Origin: an uncultured Alphaproteobacteria bacterium
Lineage (GTDB): Bacteria > Pseudomonadota > Alphaproteobacteria > RF32 > CAG-239
Assembly: GCA_944391395.1 (NCBI GenBank)
Contig: CALXTI010000006.1
Coordinates: 2,503 to 66,502 of the forward strand
DNA: 64,000 bases
Reading direction: 5' to 3'
Part shown: one piece after another, positions 12,432-38,504 of the stretch
Layout: each line of letters opens with the position of its first letter
Numbering within the stretch: position 1 is the stretch's first letter
Made by a program: the position numbers and the translations under genes
The notes under the pieces: model-generated
What the model was told of the DNA's origin: nothing
What the model saw: the letters and a program-made list of their open reading frames with translations, nothing else
Databases searched by the model: none

Positions 12432-12438
12432 AATACAC

Positions 12439-12627
12439 CTATATCGTTGCTACAAACCAATCCGGAAGTGTTTTTGGTAATTCTATTTCAATGCATGCGC
12501 ATGGCGAAAGTTTCAGTTCGTTCACATCTTTACCTATGCCGACCGGTTCCGGCTCATAATACGAACCAAACAGCCCGCATGCCGATAAAATCAGAATAGC
12601 AATCAACAAAACAACTTTTTTATACAT
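12439..12627 (-). CDS. virB7: Small lipoprotein, a VirB7-like candidate (62 aa)
   Basis: The signal peptide has a lipobox (LLIAILILSAC-G). Its small size and position between two virB8 genes and upstream of virB9 match the rvh-type order. Confidence 0.5.
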   Translation of the reverse strand: MYKKVVLLIAILILSACGLFGSYYEPEPVGIGKDVNELKLSPCACIEIELPKTLPDWFVATI

Positions 12628-12773
12628 TGCAATGTTCCTTTTATATATGTCCAGACATTATCACATTAAACTTTTTCTTTTTAAAAGTCTAACATGAAGC
12701 TCTTACATCCCCAACTTATCAACAAGTTAGAAGAATGTTTTATGGTATCATAAATGAAAAAGATTAATATAAA

Positions 12774-13532
12774 TTAAAGAATTTCAACTTCCGTTTGAGA
12801 ATATCTTGTCACGGTAAAGCCTAAAGGATTCATCAAGCGTTTTGACATGAACAGGCGCTCAGGCACGAAAAATGCCGTAACAGAAGCCGTCCAATACTTT
12901 GTAACAAGAACCAAACTTCCGGTTGCATCGTTACGAACATCGGGCGACAGGTCATAAGTGCGAAAATCAACTTTCCATACCGGACTTTTTTCGCCGCCGA
13001 CTTTGCCGATGGATATAATTTCCACATCACGCACGATTTTGTCTCGAAGCAATCTGTTGAGTTCTTGTTCACGACCTTTGTCGAACTCGGCAAAAACTTG
13101 CGAAGACGACATATATGCGACCATGCCGCCGCCAAACCACCGGGTTTGCATTTCTCGTTCATCGCTTAGCACCGTGTTGCGCAAAATAACATACTGACGG
13201 ATAAAGTTTTCCATCATCTGCCTTGAAGACGCCATATCGGGTGCAATCGGCTCATAACGTACCATTGTATCGGAGCTGTCTTGCCGGATAATCAAAAACG
13301 GTTCCACCATCACTTCCGGAGCTAGGCGAAACAACACCAATGAGGCACTGGCAAAAAAGCCCAAAGACAGAATGGCAAACAAAATCACCAACCGCGACAA
13401 CCAGCAATAATAGCTCTCTTTAGCGCCTTTTAATTCAGGGCTTTGATCCGTCACATACTCAAAATGCGTTTGCGGTGCATTGGCATCGGTAATTGCCAGT
13501 GTTTTATTGCCATTTCCCAGTTGTTCTACCAT
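12774..13532 (-). CDS. virB8: VirB8 paralog
   Basis: It has a TM helix, the IRQYVILRNTVLSDEREMQTRW motif and the C-terminal NPLGFTVTRYS signature. It is a paralog of the gene at 11685-12431. Confidence 0.8.
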   Translation of the reverse strand: MVEQLGNGNKTLAITDANAPQTHFEYVTDQSPELKGAKESYYCWLSRLVILFAILSLGFFASASLVLFRLAPEVMVEPFLIIRQDSSDTMVRYEPIAPDMASSRQMMENFIRQYVILRNTVLSDEREMQTRWFGGGMVAYMSSSQVFAEFDKGREQELNRLLRDKIVRDVEIISIGKVGGEKSPVWKVDFRTYDLSPDVRNDATGSLVLVTKYWTASVTAFFVPERLFMSKRLMNPLGFTVTRYSQTEVEIL

Positions 13533-13543
13533 TTTTTGTCCTG

Positions 13544-17728: not shown

Positions 17729-17738
17729 CGCCTTCTCC

Positions 17739-26963: not shown

Positions 26964-28778
26964 ATGCACGGGCAAGGTGTAAAAAATTTTATTTTGAGCT
27001 TTTTGTTCTCTTTATTGGCCGTTGTCGGCGTCAATAAAGTGTTTACATCTGCGCCGGAAGATACCGCGACATCAGCAAAATCTCCGCTTAAAACACAAAG
27101 CATTTCTTTGTTTTCCGTGCCGGCGGACAGCCAAAAAAAGACGGTAAACAATACGATTGACGTTAGTGAAATCGACAAGTTGACCGCATCCGTTTTGAAC
27201 AACATTCCCGACACGGAAGAAGCTCCGGAAGTTGCCATCGGCAGTTTGCCGCCGCCCCCGCCGGATGCGACACAGCATGTTATCACCACCGCAGATTTGC
27301 CCGAGCTTACACCGACTTTGGAAAACACGGCCGATTTAATCAATTCTCAAGCCGAAATGAAAAAGAAATCAACGTCGGATTTGCCCAAAGCCGTAAAAAA
27401 CAAAGTCAACACCGATTTGGCCGCAGCACAGGAAATCGTTTTAGAAAAAGAAAACGTTATCACGGTGGCCAAGGTCGATAACGACTATGAAAAAAGCGGG
27501 ATTGTTTACGCCGATATCAGCGATACTTTTGAAACCGAAACAGCAGAGCCGGCAAAAGAAAGCAATGTTGTTTATGCTCCGGGAACGGATGACGACACTG
27601 CCCCAAAAGAAAAAATTCTTCTTGCCGAAAGCAAACCGGCACTGCCGGACATTAATAAGAGCAATGTTATAGAAGAAGGCGGCATACCGCTCACGGAAGG
27701 CAGTGAAACGCTCCATTCGCATATTAATGTTGCACAAAGTGCAAATGCGGCGCAAATTGCCATGCTTGAGCCGAACAATCTGGTCAGCACAATCGAAACG
27801 GACGATTTTACGGAAGAAAAAACCTTGGCCGAAGCCGATTTGAAACAAAACGAATGGACGCAGATGTCTGAACAAAGCGAAAACGACAGTCCCTGGGTGG
27901 TGGCAAAAGGAAATAAATTTGCAAAAAATCAGGCTGTGGTGGAATATTTTGCCGAAGAAGAACAAAAAGCGGAAGTGCGCGCAGCAGAAGACAATCTTGC
28001 ACAAAAGGCCGCAAAAAGCGATGAAAAGAAAGTTACCGAAGCCTTGAAACCGGAAGGAAAAGCCGAGAGCGAAAAGGAAACAAAGGTCGCGTATCAGATG
28101 ATTCAAAACCTGCTTATTCCCATTCCGGAAGACATTATGAACGATACAAACCTGACACCGCAGTTGACAGCATCTCCGGATGACAAAAAGGCGGACGACA
28201 CAGAAAAAGAGGCGGAGAAAAACGCCGCTAAAAAAACCGCCGTCGACGAGAGCAAGCTTAATGATGACGAAAAACAAAGCGGATTGTTCAAAAGCATCGC
28301 TTCTTGGTTTTCAAGCGATAAAGACGGCGAACAAAACGGTTCTCAGCCGACAACGAAAAAAACGGCAAAAAAGAAATCCGGCATAGATTTCTTCGGATTT
28401 GTGTCCGGTGACGACAACGGCCAAGGTACAACACAGATTTTGCCGGCAGAGCTTCGGCTTTCTTTCCAACCGAACCGCGCCGAGATATCCGGGCAGACAT
28501 TGCGTTGGATACACGCTTTTGCCGACAGCGCCCGCGATAACGATGATATGTATATCGAAATCCGGATTGACGGCACCAGCTCTTTTGCTTTGCAAAAAAA
28601 ACGCCTCAATTTGCTCAGCACCATTTTAGCCAATCGAGGCGTGGATTTCAGAAAAATAAATATTGTTTTCACTTCGCGTGAGCCAAATTCATTTATTATT
28701 AGGAACATTCGGTTTAACAATGATGAGGAGGTTGTGGTCAATCAAAACAGCAATAACGCCTATTATCGACCTTGGTAA
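26964..28778 (+). CDS. Membrane-anchored acidic low-complexity protein of 604 aa with a compact ~110-aa C-terminal domain. It is the first gene of the pilus operon and its function is unknown.
   Basis: The N-terminal TM helix is FILSFLFSLLAVVGV. A long E/K/D/T-rich region follows. The C-terminal domain is LRLSFQPNRAEISGQTLRWIHAF... Confidence 0.5.
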   Translation: MHGQGVKNFILSFLFSLLAVVGVNKVFTSAPEDTATSAKSPLKTQSISLFSVPADSQKKTVNNTIDVSEIDKLTASVLNNIPDTEEAPEVAIGSLPPPPPDATQHVITTADLPELTPTLENTADLINSQAEMKKKSTSDLPKAVKNKVNTDLAAAQEIVLEKENVITVAKVDNDYEKSGIVYADISDTFETETAEPAKESNVVYAPGTDDDTAPKEKILLAESKPALPDINKSNVIEEGGIPLTEGSETLHSHINVAQSANAAQIAMLEPNNLVSTIETDDFTEEKTLAEADLKQNEWTQMSEQSENDSPWVVAKGNKFAKNQAVVEYFAEEEQKAEVRAAEDNLAQKAAKSDEKKVTEALKPEGKAESEKETKVAYQMIQNLLIPIPEDIMNDTNLTPQLTASPDDKKADDTEKEAEKNAAKKTAVDESKLNDDEKQSGLFKSIASWFSSDKDGEQNGSQPTTKKTAKKKSGIDFFGFVSGDDNGQGTTQILPAELRLSFQPNRAEISGQTLRWIHAFADSARDNDDMYIEIRIDGTSSFALQKKRLNLLSTILANRGVDFRKINIVFTSREPNSFIIRNIRFNNDEEVVVNQNSNNAYYRPW

Positions 28779-28859
28779 TAAGTGTTTTGTTAAGCTTGAT
28801 TATTTAATTTGCAACCTATATGATTGGAAAATATTATGTGTGACAAAGGGGATTTGAAC

Positions 28860-29603
28860 ATGAATAAAAAACTATTTTTACTGGTCTGCTTAGCGGGCAT
28901 GGCAGGCTGCGCACACCAAAACTCCACATACACAGCGCCATGCACGGGGCCAAATTGTCCGGCTCGGGTTGTCGCCGCGGAGGATGTTGTGCTGCCGCCG
29001 GACGATTATATCTGCCAAACAACAAATGATCCGGAATTATGTCCGTCCGACCCGTTTGTCAATTATACCGGGACCGCTGCCGACTTCAGAGAATACGGCG
29101 AAAGAACGCCGCGTGATTCAATGATTTCGCAGGCAGGCGCCGGAAACAACCTTGCCGCATCCATTCCGCCATCAATCGAAGATGAAGTTATTGAATACGA
29201 AGAACAAATCAATCCGGAAGGGGATTTGACGGCAATCGCCGAAGAAACCGTCGAAGAAGATGTTTCCGAAACGGATGAGGACGGCGTAAGCGGCAACATA
29301 GAAGATGAAGAGGGCATGGAAGATATTGAAGATCCCGTCCAAGACTGGCTGGCCGAAGAAGGGCAAAATTTAAAGGCCTTGTTGACGGATTGGAGCGAAA
29401 AGTCAGGTTGGCGCCTGGTTTGGAACACAAACCGCAATTATGTTTTGAGCGCCGGCGCCATGTTCAGAGGACGCTTTGCCGATGTCAGCTCGGCTTTAAT
29501 CAGAGCTTTTGCCAGAGCGCGCCCGGCACCGATTGCAACGTTTTATAAAGGAAACCGTGTTTTAGTGGTTGAAACAATGGAGGATGAGAATGCGTATGAA
29601 TAA
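28860..29603 (+). CDS. pilL: PilL-like lipoprotein with a TcpQ-like C-terminal domain
   Basis: It has a lipoprotein signal MNKKLFLLVCLAGMAGC with a GGGGA RBS upstream. It has an acidic linker and a C-terminal GWRLVWNTNRNYVL... motif typical of the TcpQ/PilL family. The longer ORF in the track starts at 28824. Confidence 0.55.
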   Translation: MNKKLFLLVCLAGMAGCAHQNSTYTAPCTGPNCPARVVAAEDVVLPPDDYICQTTNDPELCPSDPFVNYTGTAADFREYGERTPRDSMISQAGAGNNLAASIPPSIEDEVIEYEEQINPEGDLTAIAEETVEEDVSETDEDGVSGNIEDEEGMEDIEDPVQDWLAEEGQNLKALLTDWSEKSGWRLVWNTNRNYVLSAGAMFRGRFADVSSALIRAFARARPAPIATFYKGNRVLVVETMEDENAYE

Positions 29604-31242
29604 AATTATCAATTTGGCTATTGGAACGACCGTAGCCGGGCTGATGGCAGCCTGCTCCGTTTCAACCGATTTGGACGCAACATTGGAGCGCGAGGTTGAA
29701 AACACGGTCGCGCTAAAAGAAGAGGCAAAAATGCCGACCACGCCCGCACCGACGGACGTTATCCGAGTAAAAGACGATATCTGGCTCGGCGATACCAGTG
29801 AGGTTGAATATGAAGGCGACCCCGTGCCGAGTTATCTGGAAGCTGCCGACGGTATCACCTTAATCAGCAACCGACCGATTACTTTGTTTGAAATCGGCGA
29901 TATGATTAATAAAATCACATCGTTGTCCGTTCGTTACGATCAGGAACTGGAAGACGATTCCAAAAGCCTGGCCGACGGCAACGCCCCGAGTTTGGAAACA
30001 ATCGGCGCCCAGTGGACGGACAGCACGAAAATGTTGGTTTCATACAAAGGTCCTTTGAGCGGACTTTTGGATGAAGTATCCAACCGTTTCGGCATTTGGT
30101 GGAAATATGAAAACAAACAAATTTATTTCTACAAATACATCACCAAAACCTTTGTATTGTACACTCTTCCGACCAAACCGACCTTATCGGTCAACGTCGG
30201 CGGTTCGTCCACCGAAGGTAGTGCCGGCTCTTCATCGGTATCTTTAACAAATACCGCCAATATTGATTTGTGGACCAACGTTGAGGCTTCCATCAAATCA
30301 ATGATCAGCGACGGCGCACAATTAACTATGGACCAATCCAACGGTACCATTACCTTAACCGGCACACCGACCGACATTCGCAAAGTGGCAAAATTTGTTA
30401 ACGAACAAAATGTCCGGCTTTCGCGCCAAGTCGCCATCAGCGTTAAGGTTCTGCAGGTATCGATTACCGACAGCGACCAATACGGCTTGAACTTGGGCGC
30501 CGTGTTTAACGGTACCAGAGCCGGCGGCGGTATCAGCGGTAGTCACATTACTGACTTGGGATTTGCCAGCCCTGGTAGCGGTTTGGGTGCTGAAATTACT
30601 GAAAACTTGTCAATGGCGATTGTTTCCGGTAGCTGGACGCTGCAAGGCGCTATTCAAGCTTTGTCTGAACAAGGTACGACCACGTTGGTTACCAGCGGTA
30701 CGGTAACGACCCTGAACAACAAGCCTGCGCCTATTCAAGTGGTTCGGACGCAGAATTATATTTCCGAAATCACCAAAACAAACTCCGGCAGCGACGGCAG
30801 TTATTATGACCTGTCAACGGAAACCGAGGAAATTGAAACAGGCTTTACGCTTGATGTTTTGCCGAGAATTTTGGAACACGGACGCTTAATGTTGATGTTT
30901 AACATGACGCTTTCGGACTTAATCGAATTGGAAAGAGTTGACTTGGGCGGTTCCGGTAGCGGTGAAGGTTCGGAAGAAATCAGCGGTCAATATATTCAAA
31001 ACCCGATTATCGAAACTCGCGGCTTTACGCAGGAAGTTGCGTTAAAATCCGGCGAAACATTGATTTTGAGCGGTTATGAACGTGTTGAAAACACCGCCAA
31101 CAAGTCAGGCGTCGGCTCGGCTGACAATTCTCTCTTGGGCGGCACGGCGACGGCTGAAAAAACCAGAAGTATTTTGGTGATTATGCTGACACCTGTCGTG
31201 TTAGACACGCCGTTGTCACCGGAATCAAGAATGACTTACTAA
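29569..31242 (+). CDS. pilN: Type IVb pilus secretin, a lipoprotein of the PilN/BfpB/TcpC type
   Basis: It has a lipobox (GLMAAC). The C-terminal secretin domain reads TLVTSGTVTTLNNKPAPIQVV...VLPRILEHGRLMLMFNMTLSDL. The probable start is the internal Met at about 29596. Confidence 0.8.
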   Translation: MKQWRMRMRMNKIINLAIGTTVAGLMAACSVSTDLDATLEREVENTVALKEEAKMPTTPAPTDVIRVKDDIWLGDTSEVEYEGDPVPSYLEAADGITLISNRPITLFEIGDMINKITSLSVRYDQELEDDSKSLADGNAPSLETIGAQWTDSTKMLVSYKGPLSGLLDEVSNRFGIWWKYENKQIYFYKYITKTFVLYTLPTKPTLSVNVGGSSTEGSAGSSSVSLTNTANIDLWTNVEASIKSMISDGAQLTMDQSNGTITLTGTPTDIRKVAKFVNEQNVRLSRQVAISVKVLQVSITDSDQYGLNLGAVFNGTRAGGGISGSHITDLGFASPGSGLGAEITENLSMAIVSGSWTLQGAIQALSEQGTTTLVTSGTVTTLNNKPAPIQVVRTQNYISEITKTNSGSDGSYYDLSTETEEIETGFTLDVLPRILEHGRLMLMFNMTLSDLIELERVDLGGSGSGEGSEEISGQYIQNPIIETRGFTQEVALKSGETLILSGYERVENTANKSGVGSADNSLLGGTATAEKTRSILVIMLTPVVLDTPLSPESRMTY

Positions 31243-31257
31243 CGGAAAGGAAAAACC

Positions 31258-32553
31258 GTGCTGGAAGATGCTAATTTAGATGAAAACTATTCCGGGGGAG
31301 AAAATAATTCCCCGGAAAGAGATGAAGCCAAAGCCTGGGGCACCAGCTTTAATATCGGCAGTGTGGCTTATGCTGCCAGCCTCTTCTGGCAGCCTTTGCA
31401 AAACCGGGATGATCCGTTTACGGAAATTATCGAGGCATCGGAAAATGTCTTGGAAGGGGCTGATTTATTCTGCCTAAAACCCGGAAAATCACCGCAATTC
31501 GGCCTTTGTGTTTCTTACCAAGGATATAAGAAAAAAATGCCGGCGGCGGCGGTTATGGTTGCAACGGCTTTATCCGACCGTTCGTCCTTTTTGGCGGTAT
31601 TCAAAGTAAACAACGGATGGTGGTATGTCTGCGCCAGAAACGATATCATCCTTTCCGACGGTGATATGCTGTTTTTGAATGAAGAAGATGCCAAAGAACA
31701 GTTTATGTCGATGTTGGCCGTTCCGGATTGGGGACGCAAAATCGCTCCGGCGGAATGGGGAATCGACGAAACCGAAGAAATGTCCCTTGAGGACATGGTC
31801 GACAAAGGCGCCACGGCTTATTTACAAAAAATACGCGCTTTGCGCGGTCCGAAACTGTTTGCCGTTGTGGCCGCCATTGCCGTTATCGCCATATGGCTGG
31901 TTTCGACATTAATCAATTCGATTTTCTTAGCACCGCCCAAAAAACCAATTATTGCACCGGTTCCGGTCAAAAAAATCGAACAGGCGCCACCACCGCCCGA
32001 ACCCAAACCCTGGGAAAGCATTCCTGATCCGCAGGCCATGCTGGATAAATGCTTTCAGGCAACTCAAGATGTGGTCAGCATTGTTGTCCCGGGATGGAAA
32101 ATAGAAGGCATCACCTGCACTTCAAGCGGTTTGGTGACTTCATGGAAACGTGAAATCGGGCGACTTTCATGGATGGATCACGCTCTTGATAATTCAGGCG
32201 TCACATTTTCCAGCCGGTCGATTTCCGACCGCGGCGACAGCGTCGTTGTTTCCGTCCCGATTACGGATGTGAAGACATTAAATTCTCCGCCGGAGAAAAA
32301 CGGGGTGGATTTGGTCAACATGCTTAACGATTTGTTCCAGGCTTTCCAGATGAATATAAATATGCGAACGGAATCTTGGACCTCTCCGCAAAAAAATGTC
32401 TATCGTTCGGTCAAGTTTACTTTCACATCCAATCATGATCCGAAACAATGGAAAGATTTGTTAATGAATTTTTCAGGACTTAAGATTAATACTATTAAAT
32501 ATGATATAAACAGCCATAACTGGTATTACGAAGGAGCGATATATGTATTATAA
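31258..32553 (+). CDS. Bitopic inner-membrane pilus-assembly protein, PilO/BfpC-like (431 aa)
   Basis: It has a central TM helix LFAVVAAIAVIAIWLVSTLI. It lies between the secretin and ATPase genes, as pilO does in R64/ICE pil operons. Confidence 0.4.
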   Translation: MLEDANLDENYSGGENNSPERDEAKAWGTSFNIGSVAYAASLFWQPLQNRDDPFTEIIEASENVLEGADLFCLKPGKSPQFGLCVSYQGYKKKMPAAAVMVATALSDRSSFLAVFKVNNGWWYVCARNDIILSDGDMLFLNEEDAKEQFMSMLAVPDWGRKIAPAEWGIDETEEMSLEDMVDKGATAYLQKIRALRGPKLFAVVAAIAVIAIWLVSTLINSIFLAPPKKPIIAPVPVKKIEQAPPPPEPKPWESIPDPQAMLDKCFQATQDVVSIVVPGWKIEGITCTSSGLVTSWKREIGRLSWMDHALDNSGVTFSSRSISDRGDSVVVSVPITDVKTLNSPPEKNGVDLVNMLNDLFQAFQMNINMRTESWTSPQKNVYRSVKFTFTSNHDPKQWKDLLMNFSGLKINTIKYDINSHNWYYEGAIYVL

Positions 32554-34075
32554 GCTTTTATATAAAAATTTACTCACTGCGGCTTTGGTTTCGTTTATCA
32601 CTTTAAATGCAGCCAAACCCTGTGAAGCTCAAGGCGTTGTCTCTCTGGTTGAAGACAATGAAACGGCTGCACCCGAAAATAATGCCAACGAGGCTGCATT
32701 GCCTTCGGCTGATTTGTCCATGGATACGGAATTGCCGAACACATTGCCGAACGACGATGTTATTCCTTTGGACAATGCCGCTTTGATTTCACCGGCACCG
32801 GCAACCGAAGCTCCGGCTCCGGTTCCGGCTCCTGCGGTACAACCGGCAACGGAAAATGCTGCTGCCGGCACAAATGCCGCACCGGCTCCGGATAGTTTTA
32901 ACCAGGACATGGATTTTTCTTTGGGCATTGAAAATGATGTTCCTGCCGCTCCCGCCGTCCAGCCCGGCGCCGCAAATACAACAAAAAACAATCCTTTAAT
33001 GGCTCCTGCCGCGGAACAAAAAGCACCGGCACCTAAAAGCATTGAGGAATACGGTGATGACGTATTGGCAAAAATTGACAATGATTTGTTCAGCCAAATG
33101 TCTGATATTGAAAAACAGACGACTTTGCTGACTTTGGAACTGCGGCGTGAAAAAATCCGCAATGAAATCGAAGCTATCAGAGCTCAACGCGAAAGAGCCG
33201 AAGAAGAAAAAATCGCAGCGGAAGAAGAAAAGAAACGCAAAGAGTTTGAGTGGAAAAAAGAACAAGAAGCAAAAGTGTTAAAAGAACAGCAGCTCTTGAA
33301 GGAAAAAGAAATAGAGTTGGAAAAGCTCAAACAAAAGAAAGTGTTAAATGCTTATATGAACCGCATGTTGGAAGAAAATCAGAAATGGATTGCCGAAAAC
33401 GCGGAAATCTATAAACAAATGCGCCAGGTTGAGGCCGACAGAAAATCTCTGGTCGAGAATTTCAAACAAAAACTTGAAGCGTTAAACACTTTGTCAAACA
33501 AAGCCATTCAGTCAGCCAACAACGCCAAAAGCAACCATGACCGCACATTGGCAAGTTTGACCGCGCAAAACATTCAGTTAAAGAAACGGATTGAAGCCGA
33601 AGCTCTGGCTGCCAAAAACCGTCAGGAGAACCCCTTCGGCAATGAAGGCGGTGAAGGCGGCAACAAAAATGCAGCCGTAACGACTTCCATTGACGCAAAA
33701 ATCGTTCCGATAAACATATCCAAAGAATACGCCATTATGGACATTACCGGTCAAGGTGATGACTTGGTGGCCAAACTGATTAACAAAGAAGGTGAATCTT
33801 TCTTGGCACGAAAAGGAACTATTTTACAAACCGGTCATGCCATTGAAGCCATTACGCCAAATTATATTCAATTTGATCGCAACGGCTTGAAAGATTATCT
33901 ATATACAAGCGGCAGTGCCATGACCATGGAACCGGAAAACATGGAAGGTACGGCCACGACAAACGCCAAAGCGCCAAGAAAACCGGCGGCTGCCGCAGCA
34001 CCTAAAAAAGCCTCAAGCGGAATCGCTTCCGAGCGCGGTGTTCCTTCTTTGGGAGCCGGTATGTTTGTGAAATAA
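32543..34075 (+). CDS. Secreted Ala/Pro-rich coiled-coil protein with a C-terminal PilP-like domain (510 aa)
   Basis: It has a signal peptide and a long charged K/E-rich coiled coil. The C-terminal segment AKIVPINISKEYAIMDITGQGDDLVAKLINKEGESFLARKGTIL resembles the PilP/GspC HR domain. Confidence 0.4.
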   Translation: MYYKLLYKNLLTAALVSFITLNAAKPCEAQGVVSLVEDNETAAPENNANEAALPSADLSMDTELPNTLPNDDVIPLDNAALISPAPATEAPAPVPAPAVQPATENAAAGTNAAPAPDSFNQDMDFSLGIENDVPAAPAVQPGAANTTKNNPLMAPAAEQKAPAPKSIEEYGDDVLAKIDNDLFSQMSDIEKQTTLLTLELRREKIRNEIEAIRAQRERAEEEKIAAEEEKKRKEFEWKKEQEAKVLKEQQLLKEKEIELEKLKQKKVLNAYMNRMLEENQKWIAENAEIYKQMRQVEADRKSLVENFKQKLEALNTLSNKAIQSANNAKSNHDRTLASLTAQNIQLKKRIEAEALAAKNRQENPFGNEGGEGGNKNAAVTTSIDAKIVPINISKEYAIMDITGQGDDLVAKLINKEGESFLARKGTILQTGHAIEAITPNYIQFDRNGLKDYLYTSGSAMTMEPENMEGTATTNAKAPRKPAAAAAPKKASSGIASERGVPSLGAGMFVK

Positions 34076-34090
34076 CAGGGTTGTCGAAAA

Positions 34091-35755
34091 ATGGCTACTC
34101 AGACAGAAAACAGCAAAGAAAATAAGACTGGAGGCTCTGCGCCTTCCGGTTCTTATTTGGCTGAAAGCGAAGCAGAACAGGGGAAAAAGAAAAACATACT
34201 GGAAGAATTGTTTGCCAATAACAATAGACTTCTGACTTTGCCCGGTTCCGACATTTCCATCAATGATGAAACAAGACGTCTGGTGGCTTTATTTTCCGAC
34301 GGCACTTACTTGGTGTCAAAAGATCATCGTTTTGACGGTCCGGTTTACAACTTCGAAAAAACCATTAAAAGAAGAAAAATTCCGATTAAAGCTCCGGAAT
34401 ATGTCAGTCAAAATGAGATTACCGCCATTTATGCTTTTGCCGAGCGCGGTTCGGGTGTGGCTAACGTCGACAGCGAAACCCACGATCAGATGCAGATGCA
34501 AATCGACTTTATTAATGTCATTGCCCGCGCTTCTGCACAAAAAGTTTCTGATATTCACGTTATTGTTGCGGATTCGGCAGTCATTATGTTCCGTGTCAAC
34601 GGCATGATGCAGCGACAAATGGAATATAACAAGGAATGGGGCGAAGCTTTTGTCCGCGCCGCGTTTGCTTCCGCCGATATTTCCGATTCAAACTATGCGC
34701 AAAATGAATTTCAGGGCGCACAAAAATTAGGCGCCACGCCATTGCGCGGTTCAAACGGCAAATTGATGCTGCCGCACAATGTGTTGGCCATTCGTTTGCA
34801 ATTCAACCCGATTGCGTTTGGTTCGCAATATCTGGTCATGCGTTTGTTGTACGCCGATGACAATCCGGACGGCAGTTCGGATTTAAAATCTTTGGGCTTT
34901 GGCGAACGGGAAGAAAACTTATTTTACCGTTTACGCGCCGTGCCGGTCGGATTGAATATCGTTGCGGGACCAACGGGTTCCGGCAAATCCACAACCTTGC
35001 AAAGAAACATGATTAAGCTCTTGCAAGAAAAAAATTATGAAATTAACTTAATTACGGTGGAAGATCCGCCGGAATACCCTATTCCGGGAGCGCGGCAAAT
35101 GCCGGTGACCAACGCCAACACCGAAGAGGAAAAAGAGGCCGAATTTACAAAAGCCTTGAACGCGGCTTTGCGTTCCGACCCGGACGTGATGATGGTTGGT
35201 GAGATTCGTTCGCTTTCCGCCGCCGAATTGACATTTAAAGGCGCATTGTCAGGCCACGGCGTATGGTCCACATTGCACGCCAACTCAGCACCGGCCATTA
35301 TTACCCGTTTGCGCGATATGGGTATTCAATCTTACATGTTGGGCGATCCGGAATTGATTAAAGGACTCATCTCGCAACGTCTGTTCCGCAAGCTTTGTCC
35401 TTATTGCCGGAAATCTATTAAAGAACGTATGAACGACCCTTCTTTTGAACGTTTAAAAACCGCGTTAGGCGATTTTGGCATTGAAAACACTTTCGTCCGC
35501 GGCGAAGGTTGCAAATATTGCGGTTATAAAGGTTTTAGCGGCCGTATGTCGGTGCCGGAAATTATTTTGCCGGACGCCATGTTCCTGCAGCTGATGATAA
35601 GCGGCGACACCAAACGCGCCATCGACTATTGGACCAGCGAACTGGACGGCCGGCCTTTGCGTGATGCGGCTTTGGAAAGAATGCTAAAAGGGTATATTGA
35701 TTTAGATGAAGTTGAACGCTGGTGCGGATTGCTTGATCAGCGTCCGGTTTACTAG
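34091..35755 (+). CDS. pilQ: Type IV pilus assembly ATPase of the GspE/PilB family (PilQ-like)
   Basis: Walker A is GPTGSGKSTT, and there is a tetracysteine CPYC...CKYCGYKG motif. It is 554 aa. Confidence 0.85.
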   Translation: MATQTENSKENKTGGSAPSGSYLAESEAEQGKKKNILEELFANNNRLLTLPGSDISINDETRRLVALFSDGTYLVSKDHRFDGPVYNFEKTIKRRKIPIKAPEYVSQNEITAIYAFAERGSGVANVDSETHDQMQMQIDFINVIARASAQKVSDIHVIVADSAVIMFRVNGMMQRQMEYNKEWGEAFVRAAFASADISDSNYAQNEFQGAQKLGATPLRGSNGKLMLPHNVLAIRLQFNPIAFGSQYLVMRLLYADDNPDGSSDLKSLGFGEREENLFYRLRAVPVGLNIVAGPTGSGKSTTLQRNMIKLLQEKNYEINLITVEDPPEYPIPGARQMPVTNANTEEEKEAEFTKALNAALRSDPDVMMVGEIRSLSAAELTFKGALSGHGVWSTLHANSAPAIITRLRDMGIQSYMLGDPELIKGLISQRLFRKLCPYCRKSIKERMNDPSFERLKTALGDFGIENTFVRGEGCKYCGYKGFSGRMSVPEIILPDAMFLQLMISGDTKRAIDYWTSELDGRPLRDAALERMLKGYIDLDEVERWCGLLDQRPVY

Positions 35756-35768
35756 GAGTTTGTAAATT

Positions 35769-36887
35769 ATGGCAGAAAAAAAACGAGCAACATCCTTTAA
35801 CAAAGCAATGCGTTCCTTAAACTCTATTGAAGTTTATTACGCAAAGATGATTTGTAATTTTTCCAATGAAACCAGATTGAAAATTTATCGTAAACTGGCC
35901 GCTTTGATGCGCAACCGATTTTCTTTGATGGATGCTTTGGATATGTTGCACGACGGTATCACCAACGGCGGTAAAAATCCAAGCGAGCCGATGGCCATCG
36001 CTCTTGCCAGCTGGGGACGCGCCTTGCAAAACGGTTTGCCTTTTTCCGATGCGCTTAAAGGATGGGCGCCGAGCCGCGAACGACTGATGCTTTCCGTGGG
36101 TGATGTTTCCGATTTGGAAAGTGCTTTGTTAAACCTGATTAAAGTAACCGAGGGTTCTACCAAAATGGTTCGCCCGATTATCGGCGCCATATCATATCCG
36201 TCATTTTTGTTTATGATGTCTATTGTCATTATTTGGGCTATCGGCGCTTACATGGTGCCGCCGATGATTGACGCTGCTCCGGATGTGCGTTGGGTCGGAA
36301 CCGCCCGTACATTGGTCGATATTTCCGACTGGATTAGGGTTAACTGGCTGGTCGCTTTTGTTTCTTTCCCGATTGTTATGCTTGTGGTTTATGTTACAAT
36401 CGGTATTTGGACCGGACCGATACGCGCCGCCATCGACAATATTCCGCCATGGTCGTTGTATAAGGTTTTTATCGGCATTACTTGGTTGCTGGCTTTGTCG
36501 GCTTTGGTGAAAGGCGGTGTGCCGGTTTCAACGGCTTTACAATCTTTGCGGCGAGATTCAAACGCTTATCTTAAAGAACGTATCGATAAAACGCTTGCTT
36601 TCATTAAAAACGGTGATAACCTCGGACAAGCTTTGATGAAAACCGGCTTGAATTTTCCGGATAAAGAAATCATTGCAGACTTAAAAATTTATTCGGAATT
36701 GGATAACTTTGAAGAAGCTCTGGAAAAACTTGCCGACGATTGGTTAGAAGAATCCGTTTACATGATTGAACAAAAAGCTTCTTTGTTAAACATGGCCGCT
36801 TTGCTGGCGGTGGCCGGCGTTATCGCCTGGGCGGTGTTCGGCGTGTTTGAAATGCAAGATCAAATCACCAGCGCCATGGGAGGTTAA
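35769..36887 (+). CDS. pilR: Pilus platform protein of the GspF/PilC family (PilR-like)
   Basis: It is a polytopic membrane protein of the size and layout expected for the GspF family. It lies immediately after the ATPase gene. Confidence 0.8.
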   Translation: MAEKKRATSFNKAMRSLNSIEVYYAKMICNFSNETRLKIYRKLAALMRNRFSLMDALDMLHDGITNGGKNPSEPMAIALASWGRALQNGLPFSDALKGWAPSRERLMLSVGDVSDLESALLNLIKVTEGSTKMVRPIIGAISYPSFLFMMSIVIIWAIGAYMVPPMIDAAPDVRWVGTARTLVDISDWIRVNWLVAFVSFPIVMLVVYVTIGIWTGPIRAAIDNIPPWSLYKVFIGITWLLALSALVKGGVPVSTALQSLRRDSNAYLKERIDKTLAFIKNGDNLGQALMKTGLNFPDKEIIADLKIYSELDNFEEALEKLADDWLEESVYMIEQKASLLNMAALLAVAGVIAWAVFGVFEMQDQITSAMGG

Positions 36888-36888
36888 A

Positions 36889-37482
36889 ATGCAAATCCGT
36901 TTGGCGGATAAATTAAAGCAAAGTTCCGCAATGCTCCTGAATTTTTATCATGGTAAATATTTTTGGAGCTTTGCGGCAACGTTGGTCATCTTGTCGGTCG
37001 TGGTTTTGTTTGTGTGTCTGCCGGGACAAGACACGCGTTTTAACGCCGCACATCAAGAGTTATCCGTTTTGGTAAAGAACATTCGCAATCATTATAAAGT
37101 TCGGCCTGATTATTGGGGTTTGAACACCTCTAATGCCATCAAAAACAACTTGGTGCCGGTAGATATGCAACATGATGATAAAATCATCAGCGCTATCGGT
37201 CGGGAAATTATTCTCGGGCAAGATATAAACGGCAGCATGGTCATGCCGGGACAACGCAACTTTATGATAACGATACCTAATTTAAGCAAAGCCGCCTGTA
37301 TAGAGATGATTTCCAGACCTTTCAGTCAAGAGGAGCATTTAGGGTTGTTGAAAGTATCTCTTTTGGCTGCGGACAATTTGCAAGAATTTGAATGGGGCGG
37401 TAAACTTTCTTTGCCCATAGAAAAAAAGACGGCAAAGGAGTTTTGCAAAAATCAAAACACTATCAGTTGGATATTTGAATAA
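36889..37482 (+). CDS. Candidate type IVb prepilin (PilS-like) or small membrane protein
   Basis: It has a GGGAGG RBS. A charged ~22-aa leader ends in Gly (..NFYHG) and is followed by the hydrophobic helix KYFWSFAATLVILSVVVLFV. It occupies the position of pilS after pilR. The in-frame ORF extends upstream to 36847. Confidence 0.3.
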   Translation: MQIRLADKLKQSSAMLLNFYHGKYFWSFAATLVILSVVVLFVCLPGQDTRFNAAHQELSVLVKNIRNHYKVRPDYWGLNTSNAIKNNLVPVDMQHDDKIISAIGREIILGQDINGSMVMPGQRNFMITIPNLSKAACIEMISRPFSQEEHLGLLKVSLLAADNLQEFEWGGKLSLPIEKKTAKEFCKNQNTISWIFE

Positions 37483-37501
37483 AAGAGTATCTCATAATCA
37501 T

Positions 37502-37530
37502 AAAAAAATCCGGATATTTCCGGATTTTTT
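37502..37530. terminator. Bidirectional intrinsic terminator between the pilS candidate (+) and pilT (-)
   Basis: The hairpin is A7-tccgga-tatt-tccgga-T6. Confidence 0.6.
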
Positions 37531-37544
37531 ATATTTCTTGCAAA

Positions 37545-38504
37545 TTAAATATCTTCAAACAGCGGTCGTCCCTGTGCCATACGAGTCATTTGCGTTTCAA
37601 TCGGCGTTGCCAAGTTTAATTTACCGCTTTTGATAATGCTTCTGACCTGGCATCCTTTAGTGGTATCCGGATTGGCAAACAGAAAACGCAATACCGGCGT
37701 TTTATGACCAACACCACGCAAAGACTGATGCAACACGGCAAGCATGCCGCGGGACAATAAATCATACGCCAGAGATTCGCTCATATCCGCCGATGATGCA
37801 TATTTCACGACCGAATTTATGGCATCCGGAATATTATTGGCGTGAATCGTGGATAAGACAAGGTGGCCGGAAGTCGCGGCACGCAGGCACTCGCTGGCGG
37901 CATCCGGCGTACGGATCTCGCCGACCATAATATAACGCGGTTTGGAACGCAAGGCGGATTTTAAGGATTCGCCCCAGTTATTATTAATCGGTTGTGTTTG
38001 TTTGCATAAACCAAAAGAACCGTTTAACGCGGTATATTCACCGTCAAGCGGCATTTCGGACGGGTCTTCAATCGTATAGGCAAAGCCGCCTTCCCGAACC
38101 AAAAATTCTTTTAACAATGCCGAGATGGATGTTGTTTTACCCGAACCTGTCGCACCGGCCCACAAAATCAGCCCCGAGGCTTTGCATAAGCCGTTAAGAT
38201 ACGTCGCCAATTCTTTGCGATAGCCCAAGGTGCTAAAATCCGGCACAACTTTCGGCATTTTACGAATACAGTATTGAACGCCGGTGATGGTCATGGTTCT
38301 TTCTACACGGAAAAACACATTTTCATATAATACCGAATAACTGGAATTTCCTTCATACGAATCTTCCACCAATTTATAAAATTCCTCAAAATCGGAGGCC
38401 ACAAATATCTGCAATCCGTTTTCCGTTAAATCATCTGGGATGTATGCCACTTTTTCCGGTGTGATGTAAATATCCGAGAAAAATATATCATTGATTTTGA
38501 CCAT
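37545..38504 (-). CDS. pilT: PilT/PilU-family pilus retraction ATPase
   Basis: Walker A is GATGSGKTTSISALL. It is 319 aa with a PilT-type core. Confidence 0.85.
   Translation of the reverse strand: MVKINDIFFSDIYITPEKVAYIPDDLTENGLQIFVASDFEEFYKLVEDSYEGNSSYSVLYENVFFRVERTMTITGVQYCIRKMPKVVPDFSTLGYRKELATYLNGLCKASGLILWAGATGSGKTTSISALLKEFLVREGGFAYTIEDPSEMPLDGEYTALNGSFGLCKQTQPINNNWGESLKSALRSKPRYIMVGEIRTPDAASECLRAATSGHLVLSTIHANNIPDAINSVVKYASSADMSESLAYDLLSRGMLAVLHQSLRGVGHKTPVLRFLFANPDTTKGCQVRSIIKSGKLNLATPIETQMTRMAQGRPLFEDI

What the first reader, a model, noticed from the sequence alone, without database searches (positions are those of the whole stretch)
26964..38504. R64/ICE-type type IVb thin-pilus gene cluster divergent from the T4SS
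The cluster reads, in order, PilL-like lipoprotein with a TcpQ-like C-terminus, lipoprotein secretin (PilN/BfpB/TcpC type), a bitopic PilO-like protein, a PilP-like protein, a GspE-family ATPase with a tetracysteine motif, a GspF-family platform protein, a candidate long-leader prepilin, and a convergent PilT-like retraction ATPase. This gene order is characteristic of IncI1 R64 thin pili and of PAPI-1/SPI-7-type ICE pil operons, which support mating or host attachment. Here it is paired with a P-type, rvh-like T4SS rather than an I-type system. No prepilin peptidase, PilV adhesin, integrase or relaxase is visible, so the block may be a domesticated remnant of an integrated element.
Basis: partly seen in the sequence, partly recalled or inferred. 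Interest (0 to 1): 0.8.

Follow-up and report, generated by a model that had tools for sequence, protein, structure and literature searches.

The report
Gut alphaproteobacterial type IVb pilus machine
This is an intact, strongly conserved type IVb pilus assembly-and-retraction gene cluster in the chromosome of an uncultured gut alphaproteobacterium, next to a type IV secretion system; the gene read as its prepilin is a pilin look-alike with no cleavage site, and the real prepilin lies 15 kb away.

Summary
The cluster is real. Window 26964-38504 holds nine genes, not eight. They are a previously unrecognised OmpA-like peptidoglycan-binding protein, a TcpQ-domain lipoprotein, a PilN/BfpB lipoprotein secretin, PilO2/BfpC, a PilP-like protein, a BfpD-like assembly ATPase with CxxC...CxxC, a GspF-type platform, a pilin-fold protein (ORF8), and a convergent BfpF-like retraction ATPase.

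Two corrections apply. The first 1.8 kb is not PilL. ORF8 is not a prepilin: it has no conserved Gly(-1)/Glu(+5) in about 76 species. The canonical bundlin-like prepilin (MRENG|RSMIEMLGVLAIVGVLS) is at 52235-52855, and in about half of the related species it sits directly after ORF8 in one to four copies.

The motor proteins are closer to EPEC BFP and to a Bosea plasmid cluster than to IncI/R64.

The block is not a decaying remnant. The ATPase has relatives in 251 species genomes. All 80 loci examined keep the gene order, and 56 of 68 informative loci keep divergent VirB2 genes upstream. dN/dS is 0.01-0.24, with the motors more constrained than the flanking addAB.

No prepilin peptidase, PilV, PilM, relaxase or coupling protein is in the window.

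Verdict: a new variant of a known kind, of moderate interest.

The parts
26443..26963 (.). AT-rich 520-bp divergent intergenic region between the first virB2 paralogue (- strand) and ORF1 (+ strand). Presumed to hold the promoters of both operons.
   Evidence: Read from the sequence. The consensus promoter scan finds no more sites than chance, so the promoter role is inferred from geometry only.
26964..28778 (+). ORF1, 604 aa. It has an N-terminal hydrophobic anchor or signal, a long acidic and lysine-rich variable linker, and a conserved C-terminal OmpA/MotB/Pal-like domain (about aa 496-583). Predicted to tie the machine to the peptidoglycan.
   Evidence: No Pfam or NCBIfam hit. Present as the first gene wherever the contig reaches that far (75 of 80 related loci; the other five contigs end before it). 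The C-terminal domain is highly conserved, with invariant R155, D157 and R168 (numbering of the 225-aa fragment in alignment A2). In the AF2 model the domain has pLDDT above 90 and a b-a-b-a-b-b topology. The top 50 Foldseek hits in the PDB are all OmpA-like domains, such as OprF, MotB and Pal.
28860..29603 (+). PilL/TcpQ/BfpG-like outer-membrane lipoprotein. The lipobox is LAGMAG|C. The open frame runs from 28824 and public gene calls start at 28836.
   Evidence: PF10671 TcpQ, 58.8 bits, at residues 173-250. blastp gives 45% to the Bosea TcpQ protein, 30% to BfpG (E 1e-16) and 26% to IncI PilL. The lipobox was read from the translation.
29599..31242 (+). PilN/BfpB-family lipoprotein secretin. 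The lipobox is GLMAA|C. The open frame runs from 29569.
   Evidence: TIGR02520 at 277.8 bits (cut-off 287.65) and PF00263 Secretin. Essentially all listed plasmid hits are annotated as PilN family, at about 30% identity. Identity is 32% to Hydrogenophaga PilN, 28% to BfpB and 31% to IncI PilN.
31258..32553 (+). PilO2/BfpC-type bitopic inner-membrane protein. It has a cytoplasmic actin-like N-domain, one transmembrane segment and a periplasmic domain.
   Evidence: PF06864 at 78.8 bits. The PDB sequence search hits the BfpC N-domain at E 1.9e-5. blastp gives 28% to Bosea PilO2 (E 1e-36) and 25% to BfpC over the full length (E 5e-21). The fold and role of the family are described in PMC3984277.
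32543..34075 (+). PilP-like periplasmic protein, 510 aa. It has a signal peptide, a Pro/Ala-rich stretch, a roughly 200-aa charged segment that looks like a coiled coil, and a conserved C-terminal PilP-like domain.
   Evidence: TIGR03021 pilP_fam at E 0.0025, 18.8 bits, below the cut-off. The lineage profile matches Hydrogenophaga PilP at 69.5% (E 4e-5) and IncI PilP at 25%. The gene sits in the position of pilP or bfpU. The assignment is probable but not proven.
34091..35755 (+). Assembly (extension) ATPase of the PilQ(R64)/BfpD type. It has Walker A GPTGSGKST and the tetracysteine motif CPYC-x29-CKYC.
   Evidence: PF00437 at 225 bits. The best PDB match is BfpD at 304 bits over the full length, against GspE at 172 and PilB at about 150 or less. 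Identity is 37% to Bosea, 35% to BfpD and 31% to IncI PilQ. Identity is 73-98% across the 80 best of 251 matching species genomes. dN/dS is 0.013-0.024.
35769..36887 (+). Polytopic platform protein of the PilR(R64)/BfpE/GspF family.
   Evidence: PF00482 at 91 bits, two stretches. Identity is 34% to Bosea, 32% to BfpE (E 1.5e-63) and 24% to IncI PilR. dN/dS is 0.018-0.034.
36889..37482 (+). ORF8, 197 aa. A type IVb pilin paralogue with a non-canonical N-terminus: a basic stretch of about 20 aa, one transmembrane helix, and no conserved Gly(-1) or Glu(+5). It is translationally coupled to the platform gene.
   Evidence: A GGAGG sequence sits inside the end of pilR and the ATG lies 1 nt after the pilR stop codon. 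The N-terminus is not conserved and carries no class III motif in about 76 species or in the roughly 110 best-scoring representative clusters. The globular domain is conserved, with two Cys. hhalign gives 96.9% to bundlin, 76% to IncI PilS, and 99.5% (E 4e-23) to the lineage's canonical prepilins. The AF2 model has pLDDT 83, and the top 16 PDB fold hits are all type IVb pilins.
37503..37530 (.). Perfect 12-bp hairpin flanked by an A-run and a T-run, lying between the two convergent genes. Read as a bidirectional intrinsic terminator that closes the operon.
   Evidence: AAAAAATCCGGATATTTCCGGATTTTTT, found by the terminator scan.
37545..38504 (-). BfpF/PilT2-type small hexameric ATPase, 319 aa. 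It has Walker A GATGSGKTT, no tetracysteine motif and no N-terminal domain. Predicted to be the retraction motor, with its own transcription unit.
   Evidence: PF00437, with the PilT family as the best NCBIfam match but below its cut-off. PilT is the best PDB match. The full-length alignment gives about 32.5% to EPEC BfpF (E 4e-38), 35% to Bosea and 32% to the Hydrogenophaga in-operon ATPase. Found within about 8 kb downstream in 44 of 73 informative loci, on either strand. dN/dS is 0.016-0.029.
52235..52855 (+). Canonical class III prepilin, 206 aa, MRENG|RSMIEMLGVLAIVGVLS. It is bundlin/PilS-like, monocistronic, and the probable major pilin of this machine.
   Evidence: Found through relatives. 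The same family sits immediately downstream of ORF8 in 37 of 73 informative loci, in one to four tandem copies. tblastn places it at 52241-52837 in the window. The translation and RBS are. hhalign gives 98% to BfpA (E 2e-13), 96% to IncI PilS and 97% to the Hydrogenophaga pilin. The Pfam N_methyl match is only weak. A hairpin lies downstream at 52888-52911.
1172..26442 (-). Context only: a divergently transcribed P-type T4SS. It comprises three VirB2, VirB4, a 1394-aa protein without family hits, two VirB8, VirB9 with a SPOR domain, a 1208-aa beta-flower/RHS protein, a 1426-aa VirB10 and VirB11. No VirD4 or relaxase was found.
   Evidence: Pfam and NCBIfam hits. VirB2 genes lie upstream of ORF1 in 56 of 68 informative related loci.

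Best explanation
The block encodes a complete, functional type IVb pilus (T4bP) assembly-and-retraction machine of the BFP/R64 (PilO2/BfpC-containing) clade. It is fixed in the chromosome of an uncultured gut alphaproteobacterial lineage, the group that includes CAG:495 and Candidatus Scatocola.

Proposed mechanism:
- The lipoprotein secretin forms the outer-membrane pore with its TcpQ/BfpG-like lipoprotein partner.
- ORF1 ties the complex to the peptidoglycan through its OmpA-like domain.
- PilO2 and the PilP-like protein bridge the inner membrane and the secretin.
- The BfpD-like ATPase, working on the GspF-type platform, polymerises a bundlin-like pilin. That pilin is encoded outside the operon, at 52235-52855.
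- A prepilin peptidase encoded elsewhere in the genome processes the pilin.
- The separately transcribed BfpF-like ATPase retracts the filament.
- ORF8, a pilin paralogue that cannot be processed at a class III site, most likely stays anchored in the inner membrane. There it would act as a pilin-shaped assembly factor, either a template for priming or a basal anchor.

Because the cluster stays next to a P-type T4SS across the lineage, the pili most likely make and tighten contact with the cells or surfaces on which that T4SS acts.

What is shown: gene identities, homologies, conservation, selection, and the absence of a class III signal in ORF8. What is inferred: peptidoglycan binding by ORF1, the role of ORF8, the existence of a peptidase elsewhere, and cooperation with the T4SS.
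For: -
- The secretin's plasmid homologues are annotated as PilN family.
- The ATPase matches BfpD far better than GspE or PilB, and PilO matches BfpC.
- Full-length similarity to BfpG, B, C, D, E and F, and to Bosea and Hydrogenophaga plasmid T4bP clusters with the same gene order.
- The small ATPase aligns end to end with BfpF.
- The canonical prepilin family has a nearly invariant G|RSMVEMLGVLAIIGVLS. It is homologous to bundlin and PilS and physically linked to ORF8 in 37 of 73 loci.
- ORF8 has a pilin fold without a class III signal and is translationally coupled to the platform gene.
- ORF1 has a predicted OmpA-like fold. As a precedent, an OmpA-like module occurs in the Hydrogenophaga junction protein.
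- The ATPase has relatives in 251 species genomes, and all 80 loci examined keep the gene order wherever the contig allows.
- dN/dS is 0.013-0.24 for every gene, and the motors are more constrained than the flanking addAB.
- VirB2 genes lie upstream in 56 of 68 loci.
- The flanks are housekeeping genes.
- In PAPI-1 and Burkholderia Tfp7 the operon also lacks a peptidase, and pilT2 is a separate ATPase gene in Tfp7 (PMC3984277).
Against: - No prepilin peptidase, minor pilin, PilV, PilM/BfpL or lytic transglycosylase was found in the window or in the 80 related loci, about 1.5 Mb in total. Full competence of the machine therefore rests on genes that were not seen.
- The organism is uncultured, and no expression or imaging data exist.
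- The PilP assignment is weak.
- ORF1's peptidoglycan binding rests on a predicted fold at 12-20% identity.
- dS is near saturation, so the dN/dS values are rough.
- Linkage to the T4SS shows co-inheritance, not cooperation. The closest plasmid T4SS (Microvirga) has no T4bP beside it.
Confidence: 0.75

Rival explanations
1. The block is a domesticated but decaying remnant of an integrated conjugative element. On this reading the pilus no longer assembles, because the peptidase, adhesin and prepilin have been lost.
For: No peptidase, PilV, PilM, relaxase, coupling protein or element integrase is in the window. The gene in the prepilin slot lacks a cleavage site. The nearest homologues of both the T4bP and the T4SS are on plasmids, so an origin in a mobile element is plausible.
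Against: All nine genes are intact and syntenic in the 80 species examined. dN/dS is 0.013-0.24, and the motor genes are more constrained than the flanking addAB. A canonical, highly conserved prepilin exists, in the window at 52235-52855 and adjacent to ORF8 in half of the relatives. PAPI-1 and Burkholderia Tfp7 also lack an in-operon peptidase, and in P. aeruginosa PilD processes PilS2 instead.
Confidence: 0.07
2. The machine is the mating-pair stabiliser of an active conjugation system. The adjacent T4SS would transfer DNA and the thin pilus would hold donor and recipient together, as in R64 and PAPI-1.
For: The R64 and PAPI-1 homologues have this role (PMC3984277; PMC5297154, listed). The T4SS's closest plasmid relatives carry a MobA/MobL relaxase and VirD4. 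The T4SS and T4bP are divergently arranged and co-inherited.
Against: No relaxase, VirD4 or element boundaries are present in the 64 kb. The flanks are core housekeeping genes. The position is the same in many species, as expected for vertical inheritance rather than a mobile element. No PilV shufflon adhesin is present.
Confidence: 0.12
3. The machine works mainly as a T2SS-like secretion piston or short periplasmic pseudopilus rather than as a surface pilus. ORF8 would be a non-extrudable pseudopilin.
For: ORF8 is anchored and cannot be processed at a class III site. From general knowledge, not tested here: type IVb systems such as TCP and CFA/III also secrete soluble proteins (TcpF, CofJ).
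Against: A dedicated BfpF-like retraction ATPase is conserved. The canonical pilins are the size of type IVb major pilins, evolve fast and occur in tandem arrays of one to four copies, as expected for exposed filament subunits. The secretin, ATPase and platform score far below the T2SS family cut-offs.
Confidence: 0.06

Closest known systems
Bundle-forming pilus (BFP) of enteropathogenic E. coli, bfpA-G-B-C-U-D-E-F-P-H-I-J-K-L on the EAF plasmid pMAR2
   Same: The core order is the same: TcpQ-like lipoprotein (BfpG), lipoprotein secretin (BfpB), PilO2-type bitopic protein (BfpC), a periplasmic protein, extension ATPase (BfpD), platform (BfpE), retraction ATPase (BfpF). Similarity runs over the full length: BfpD 35% (E 6e-98), BfpE 32%, BfpF 33%, BfpB 28%, BfpC 25%, BfpG domain 30%. 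Both pilin families of this lineage are closest to bundlin (hhalign 97-98%).
   Different: No BfpP peptidase, BfpH transglycosylase, BfpI/J/K minor pilins, BfpL, or recognisable BfpU is present. The major pilin gene does not lead the operon. An extra OmpA-like gene comes first. A pilin paralogue without a cleavage site lies between the platform and retraction ATPase genes. The retraction ATPase is convergent and has its own transcription unit. The cluster is chromosomal and sits beside a T4SS.
R64 thin-pilus variant of type IVb pili (IncI pilI-V; PAPI-1 pilL2N2O2P2Q2R2S2T2V2M2; Burkholderia pseudomallei Tfp7)
   Same: The order L/TcpQ-N-O-P-Q-R-S is shared. PilN, PilO2 and TcpQ are recognised by family models. 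As in PAPI-1 and Tfp7, the operon has no peptidase, and as in Tfp7 the PilT2-type ATPase is a separate gene. Tfp7 is also chromosomal.
   Different: Sequence similarity to the IncI proteins is lower than to BFP: PilQ 31%, PilR 24%, and PilO barely detectable by blastp. PilM (PF07419) and the PilV adhesin or shufflon are absent. The PilS slot is occupied by a pilin without a class III signal. No conjugative backbone is present.
Plasmid T4bP clusters of Bosea sp. RAC05 (pBSY19_1) and Hydrogenophaga sp. BPS33 (pBPS33-1)
   Same: These are the closest annotated relatives of the core. Bosea: ATPase 37% (E 4e-110), platform 34%, small ATPase 35%, PilO2 28%, TcpQ domain 45%. The Hydrogenophaga cluster directly abuts virB4...virB9-virB10, includes an in-operon 321-aa ATPase (32% identical), and has an OmpA-like module just upstream of TcpQ-PilN.
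   Different: The plasmid clusters keep a PilV adhesin. Hydrogenophaga also keeps an annotated PilM and a normal class III major pilin, while Bosea has a 199-aa PilM-like protein without family hits. Their PilP is short in Hydrogenophaga (129 aa) and a 307-aa unannotated protein in Bosea, against 510 aa here. The T4SS of this window is most similar to a different plasmid family (Microvirga, Sphingosinicella, Erythrobacter) that has no T4bP beside it.

Membership tests
Type IVb pilus, R64 thin-pilus variant (Pil L-V) | PilN-family lipoprotein secretin | tested here: met
   TIGR02520 scores 277.8 bits, 10 bits under the equivalog cut-off of 287.65 but far above every other secretin model (MshL 118, GspD 49). 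The lipobox GLMAA|C is present. Plasmid homologues are annotated as PilN family.
Type IVb pilus, R64 thin-pilus variant (Pil L-V) | PilO2 (PF06864) bitopic protein | tested here: met
   PF06864 scores 78.8 bits against a cut-off of 26.7, over residues 39-410. The lineage profile matches Hydrogenophaga PilO2 at 98.4% and IncI PilO at 96%.
Type IVb pilus, R64 thin-pilus variant (Pil L-V) | PilL/TcpQ-domain lipoprotein upstream of the secretin | tested here: met
   PF10671 scores 58.8 bits against a cut-off of 27. hhalign to IncI PilL gives 82.5%. The lipobox is present.
Type IVb pilus, R64 thin-pilus variant (Pil L-V) | PilP | tested here: inconclusive
   TIGR03021 scores 18.8 bits, below the cut-off of 34.65. 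hhalign gives 69.5% to Hydrogenophaga PilP and 25% to IncI PilP. The gene position fits, but the protein is 510 aa rather than about 150.
Type IVb pilus, R64 thin-pilus variant (Pil L-V) | PilS prepilin with a class III signal (Gly-1, Glu+5) following pilR in the operon | tested here: not met
   The gene after pilR has a pilin fold but no conserved Gly-1 or Glu+5. A canonical PilS/bundlin-like prepilin exists 14.7 kb away at 52235-52855.
Type IVb pilus, R64 thin-pilus variant (Pil L-V) | PilM, PilU prepilin peptidase, PilV adhesin and shufflon, PilT lytic transglycosylase | tested here: not met
   phmmer with the IncI, Hydrogenophaga, Bosea and BFP proteins found nothing in the window or the 80 loci. 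The only polytopic membrane ORFs in the window are the platform protein and AtpB. Sensitivity is limited to single-sequence searches. PilU is also absent from PAPI-1 and Tfp7.
Type IVb pilus, R64 thin-pilus variant (Pil L-V) | Carried on a conjugative element (I-type or GI-type T4SS, relaxase) | tested here: not met
   The flanks are housekeeping genes, there is no relaxase or VirD4, and the neighbouring T4SS is P-type. Burkholderia Tfp7 is also chromosomal, so this feature is not universal for the family.
Bundle-forming pilus (BFP) type | BfpG-B-C-D-E-F homologues in that order | tested here: met
   blastp E-values run from 1e-16 to 6e-98 with full-length alignments. BfpD is the top PDB match at 304 bits. 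The BfpC N-domain matches at E 1.9e-5.
Bundle-forming pilus (BFP) type | Bundlin-like major prepilin | tested here: met
   The canonical prepilin family matches BfpA at hhalign 98%, E 2e-13, over 175 columns including the N-terminus. It is not located at the head of the operon.
Bundle-forming pilus (BFP) type | BfpP, BfpH, BfpI/J/K, BfpL, BfpU | tested here: not met
   There are no phmmer hits. hhalign of the PilP-like and ORF8 profiles against BfpU, BfpL and BfpI/J/K gives below 15%.
Type II secretion system | GspD secretin, GspE ATPase and GspF at equivalog level; GspC, L and M; pseudopilins G-K | tested here: not met
   GspD scores 48.6 against a cut-off of 351, GspE 227 against 630, and GspF 59.6 against 424. 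No class III pseudopilin set is present.
Tad/Flp (type IVc) pilus | CpaF/TadA-type ATPase, RcpA secretin, TadB/C platform pair, Flp pilin | tested here: not met
   No CpaF appears among the PDB hits at E 1e-10, whereas BfpD scores E 1.6e-89. The TadA-family model scores 48 bits against a cut-off of 373. Some public records label homologues 'TadA', which is an annotation artefact.
PilT/BfpF retraction ATPases | Small (about 320-370 aa) hexameric secretion ATPase without the N1 domain or the tetracysteine motif, encoded with a pilus system | tested here: met
   The protein is 319 aa with a Walker A motif and no CxxC pairs. It aligns with BfpF over 99% of its length at about 32.5% identity. PilT is the best PDB and NCBIfam family, although below the type IVa PilT cut-off (108.6 against 319). 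Retraction activity itself cannot be tested here.

The most novel reading that the evidence does not exclude
ORF8 may define a new class of type IV pilus component. It would be a pilin-fold protein that has swapped its class III signal for an uncleavable signal-anchor, is made in step with the platform protein, and stays in the inner membrane. There it would prime, template or terminate and anchor the filament. In this lineage it would replace the minor-pilin, PilM and BfpL functions. Together with the peptidoglycan-binding ORF1 and the co-inherited, heavily elaborated P-type T4SS, it would form one integrated contact-and-injection apparatus. That apparatus would be the core lifestyle organelle of a widespread group of uncultured gut Alphaproteobacteria.
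Probability: 0.3. Interest if true: 0.65.

Novelty: new variant of a known kind. Interest (0 to 1): 0.45.

Why it matters
The host lineage is a common but uncultured group of Alphaproteobacteria in the guts of humans, ruminants, rabbits and birds, and nothing is known of its lifestyle. No paper describing this system was found.

The lineage keeps a dynamic BFP-like pilus and an elaborate T4SS side by side, under stronger constraint than the flanking recombination-repair genes addAB. This points to a contact-dependent way of life, directed at other microbes or at the host, and it identifies the genes to test.

For pilus biology, the cluster offers a natural case of a pilin paralogue without a prepilin-peptidase site, conserved in a fixed operon slot across more than 100 sequence clusters. 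It also offers a dedicated OmpA-like anchoring protein. Both bear on how type IVb machines are primed and fixed in the cell envelope.

For annotation, homologues of the assembly ATPase are labelled 'TadA' or 'GspE' in public records, and ORF1 and ORF8 are labelled 'hypothetical'.

Tried and rejected
1. My first class III motif regex (G[FMLIV..][ST][LIVF]..E) found nothing in the window or the loci. This was a false negative, because the lineage's pilins start G|RSMVE. Clustering the ORFs downstream of ORF8 revealed them. The early idea that the lineage has no cleavable pilin at all was dropped.

2. Pfam, NCBIfam and hhalign against the other cluster proteins gave nothing for ORF1, including at relaxed thresholds. 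Only structure prediction followed by fold search resolved it.

3. I tested whether ORF8 is a homologue of PilM or BfpL. hhalign gives below 1% to the IncI and Hydrogenophaga PilM and below 15% to BfpL and the Bosea 199-aa protein. Homology is rejected, although an analogous role remains possible.

4. I searched for a prepilin peptidase, PilV, minor pilins and a lytic transglycosylase using phmmer. I also screened the window for polytopic ORFs carrying GxGD. Nothing was found.

5. I tested whether the T4SS and T4bP were inherited as one plasmid block. The best plasmid VirB4 relatives (Microvirga and others) have a relaxase and VirD4 but no T4bP, so there is no support for this.

6. The dN/dS calculation suffers from dS near saturation (0.6 to above 2). 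I use it only as evidence that the ratios are well below 1.

7. Consensus promoter scans were no better than chance and were not used.

8. Literature searches for RF32, CAG-239 and BFP accessory proteins returned nothing specific to this system.

Full report
**What is at the coordinates**

Window 26964-38504 contains eight co-directional genes on the + strand and one convergent gene.

- A TcpQ-domain protein (PF10671, 58.8 bits).
- A secretin whose best model by far is NCBIfam TIGR02520, 'PilN family type IVB pilus formation outer membrane protein'. It scores 277.8 bits, 10 bits under the equivalog cut-off, and the next secretin model scores 118.
- A PilO2 protein (PF06864, 78.8 bits).
- A T2SSE ATPase (225 bits).
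- A T2SSF platform (91 bits).
- A second, small T2SSE ATPase.

Both outer-membrane proteins have lipoboxes (LAGMAG|C and GLMAA|C). The large ATPase carries CPYC-x29-CKYC, read directly from the translations. The PilP call is weaker: TIGR03021 gives E 0.0025, below its cut-off, and hhalign gives 69.5% to a plasmid PilP.

**Correction 1: the first gene is not PilL**

It has no Pfam or NCBIfam match.

Across related species it keeps an N-terminal hydrophobic segment, a long variable acidic linker and a very conserved C-terminal domain of about 90 residues. An AlphaFold2 model of that domain has pLDDT above 90 and a b-a-b-a-b-b topology. Its 50 best Foldseek matches in the PDB are all OmpA-like peptidoglycan-binding domains, including OprF, MotB and Pal.

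I therefore read ORF1 as a peptidoglycan tether for the machine. The fold assignment rests on a prediction, and binding is inferred. There is a precedent. In Hydrogenophaga plasmid pBPS33-1, the protein just upstream of TcpQ-PilN combines a CagX/VirB9-like domain, a weak OmpA domain and two TcpQ domains.

**Correction 2: the 'long-leader prepilin' is not a prepilin**

ORF8 (36889-37482) starts 1 nt after the platform gene's stop codon, behind a GGAGG sequence. Its N-terminus is a basic stretch followed by one transmembrane helix.

In about 76 related species this N-terminus is not conserved and has no conserved Gly(-1) or Glu(+5). The same holds for the roughly 110 best-scoring clusters found with a profile search of 1.84 billion representative proteins.

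The rest of the protein is a genuine type IVb pilin domain.
- It has two conserved cysteines.
- hhalign gives 96.9% to bundlin and 76% to IncI PilS.
- The AF2 model has pLDDT 83, and its top 16 PDB fold matches are all type IVb pilins, including S. typhi PilS, TcpA and CofA.

**The real prepilin**

I clustered the ORFs that lie downstream of ORF8 in the related loci. This exposed a family of canonical prepilins with a nearly invariant G|RSMVEMLGVLAIIGVLS. They sit directly after ORF8 in 37 of 73 informative loci, in one to four tandem copies.

My earlier, stricter regex had missed these genes.

In the window the family has a single member at 52235-52855 (MRENG|RSMIEMLGVLAIVGVLS). It has its own ribosome-binding site and lies between the ATP-synthase b' gene and ftsH. 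The family is homologous to bundlin (98%, E 2e-13), to IncI PilS (96%) and to the globular domain of ORF8 (99.5%, E 4e-23), but not to ORF8's N-terminus.

ORF8 is therefore a paralogue of the major pilin that has lost the class III signal.

**Which kind of pilus system**

That test fails to refute.
- The assembly ATPase matches BfpD at 304 bits over its full length. GspE scores 172 and PilB about 150 or less. No CpaF appears at E 1e-10.
- The secretin's plasmid homologues are annotated as PilN family.
- PilO matches the BfpC N-domain.

However, 'R64/ICE-type' is only approximate. By blastp, the ATPase, platform, PilO and small ATPase are closer to a Bosea plasmid cluster and to EPEC BFP than to IncI/R64. 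For the ATPase the scores are 334, 300 and 166 bits. For the platform they are 237, 199 and 107 bits.

The order TcpQ-secretin-PilO2-periplasmic protein-ATPase-platform-small ATPase equals bfpG-B-C-U-D-E-F.

The small ATPase aligns over 99% of its length with BfpF, annotated in pMAR2 as the BFP retraction ATPase, at about 32.5% identity. It is also 32% identical to the in-operon ATPase of the Hydrogenophaga cluster. A published comparison shows two further parallels. PAPI-1 and Burkholderia Tfp7 also lack an in-operon peptidase, with PilD doing the processing in P. aeruginosa. In Tfp7, pilT2 is a separate ATPase gene (PMC3984277).

**Organism, conservation and selection**

Exactly the same ATPase sequence occurs on many gut-metagenome contigs. 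A genome scan found relatives in 251 species genomes, and the 80 best were kept as loci.

Most of these are labelled uncultured Alphaproteobacteria. They come from humans, ruminants, rabbits and chickens, and include 'Proteobacteria bacterium CAG:495' and Candidatus Scatocola. NCBI places Candidatus Scatocola in Rhodospirillales. From memory, not tested here, GTDB calls this group order RF32.

All 80 loci keep ORF1-L-N-O-P-Q-R-ORF8 wherever the contig allows.

Amino-acid identity to the window by gene:

| Gene | Identity range |
|---|---|
| Assembly ATPase | 73-98% |
| Platform | 68-98% |
| Small ATPase | 67-97% |
| Secretin | 55-96% |
| ORF1 | 29-68% |
| ORF8 | 29-61% |

Against the four closest species, dN/dS is 0.013-0.04 for the motors and the secretin, 0.10-0.24 for ORF8 and 0.13-0.18 for ORF1. 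The flanking addAB genes give about 0.1. dS is near saturation, so I use only the conclusion that the ratios are well below 1.

The window's flanks are core genes: yidC, engB, trxA, addAB, rph, aroK, a Xer-type recombinase, dciA, atp genes and ftsH.

This is a fixed, vertically inherited chromosomal system, not a decaying remnant. An ancient origin in a mobile element remains plausible, because the nearest annotated homologues are on plasmids.

**Link to the T4SS**

A P-type T4SS lies divergently upstream. It comprises three VirB2, VirB4, two VirB8, VirB9 with a SPOR domain, a giant VirB10 and VirB11.

VirB2 genes lie upstream of ORF1 in 56 of 68 informative loci and downstream of the pilin genes in three more. 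No VirD4 or relaxase is in the window.

The pairing has a plasmid precedent in Hydrogenophaga. However, the T4SS's own nearest plasmid relatives (Microvirga and others) carry a relaxase and VirD4 and have no T4bP. There is thus no sign that the two systems arrived as one block.

**Operon structure**

The genes are tightly packed or overlapping. A perfect hairpin flanked by A and T runs (37503-37530) separates ORF8 from the convergent ATPase and looks like a bidirectional terminator.

**What is missing**

No prepilin peptidase, PilV, PilM/BfpL, BfpI/J/K or lytic transglycosylase was found in the window or in about 1.5 Mb of related loci by phmmer. The only polytopic membrane ORFs in the window are the platform protein and AtpB.

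The near-invariant cleavage site of the canonical pilins implies a peptidase elsewhere in the genome. This is an inference that I could not test.

**Mechanism proposed**

- The secretin and its TcpQ lipoprotein form the outer-membrane pore.
- ORF1 anchors the complex to the peptidoglycan.
- PilO2 and the long PilP-like protein link the inner-membrane motor to the secretin.
- The BfpD-like ATPase and the platform polymerise the bundlin-like pilin.
- The BfpF-like ATPase retracts the filament.
- ORF8 remains membrane-anchored as a pilin-shaped assembly factor. Whether it primes assembly or acts as a basal anchor is speculative.
- The pili most likely establish and tighten contact for the neighbouring T4SS. 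The target, whether host or microbe, is unknown.

**Verdict**

The system is a new variant of a known kind, a BFP/R64-clade type IVb pilus, and is of moderate interest. The interest lies mainly in the conserved uncleavable pilin paralogue, the OmpA-like component, and what the T4bP-T4SS pair implies about an unstudied gut lineage.

Noticed in passing
window 2159-17728 and 24506-25669 (- strand): The adjacent T4SS is unusually elaborate. It has a 1426-aa VirB10 and a 1208-aa protein packed with beta-flower (PF21785) and RHS repeats, a VirB9 with a C-terminal SPOR domain, duplicated VirB8, and a 1394-aa protein with no family hit. It also has three VirB2 paralogues, one of them 387 aa long with a collagen-like tail.
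   Followed up: partly
L039 13465-15467; L041 13430-15429; L047 13457-15516; L071, L073, L077 (same region): Many relatives carry tandem arrays of two to four canonical prepilin genes directly after ORF8. The N-termini are identical and the globular domains diverge. This looks like a reservoir for pilin variation.
   Followed up: partly
window 52169-52180: A run of 12 A's lies about 55 nt upstream of the prepilin start codon, in its presumed promoter region. It is a possible slipped-strand phase-variation tract.
   Followed up: no
L013, L040, L045, L058: Genome records titled Lachnospiraceae bacterium, [Ruminococcus] gnavus and Bacteroidaceae bacterium hold this alphaproteobacterial locus at 76-90% ATPase identity. 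These assemblies appear to be mislabelled or mis-binned.
   Followed up: no
L085 9920-11623 (Hydrogenophaga plasmid pBPS33-1): A single 567-aa protein at the junction of the virB and pil operons combines a CagX/VirB9-like domain, a weak OmpA domain and two TcpQ domains. It hints at physical coupling of a T4SS and a type IVb pilus on that plasmid.
   Followed up: partly
L062 about 17-20 kb, L068 16764-17450, L071 18797-20269 and about 20 other loci: Three ORF families recur downstream of the pilus cluster in about 22 species. From their sequences they look like a von Willebrand A-like protein, a protein-kinase-like protein and a PP2C-like phosphatase. This may be a signalling module; no family scan was run on them.
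   Followed up: no
window 34091-38504 compared with 39054-45376: The pilus motor proteins are far more conserved between species than the flanking addA and addB genes. In L009, for example, the ATPase is 93% identical against 60% for AddA.
   Followed up: partly
window 48947-49678 (+): A DsbA-like thioredoxin-fold protein (PF13462, PF01323) is encoded 10 kb downstream. It could oxidise the cysteine-rich pilins, since the window prepilin has eight Cys, but it may simply be a housekeeping gene.
   Followed up: no
window 57029-57916 (-) and 17739-21577 (-): Several sizeable ORFs have no family assignment: a 295-aa ORF and, inside the T4SS operon, ORFs of 436, 237 and 622 aa. The T4SS ones show only weak matches to charged, helix-rich families.
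   Followed up: no
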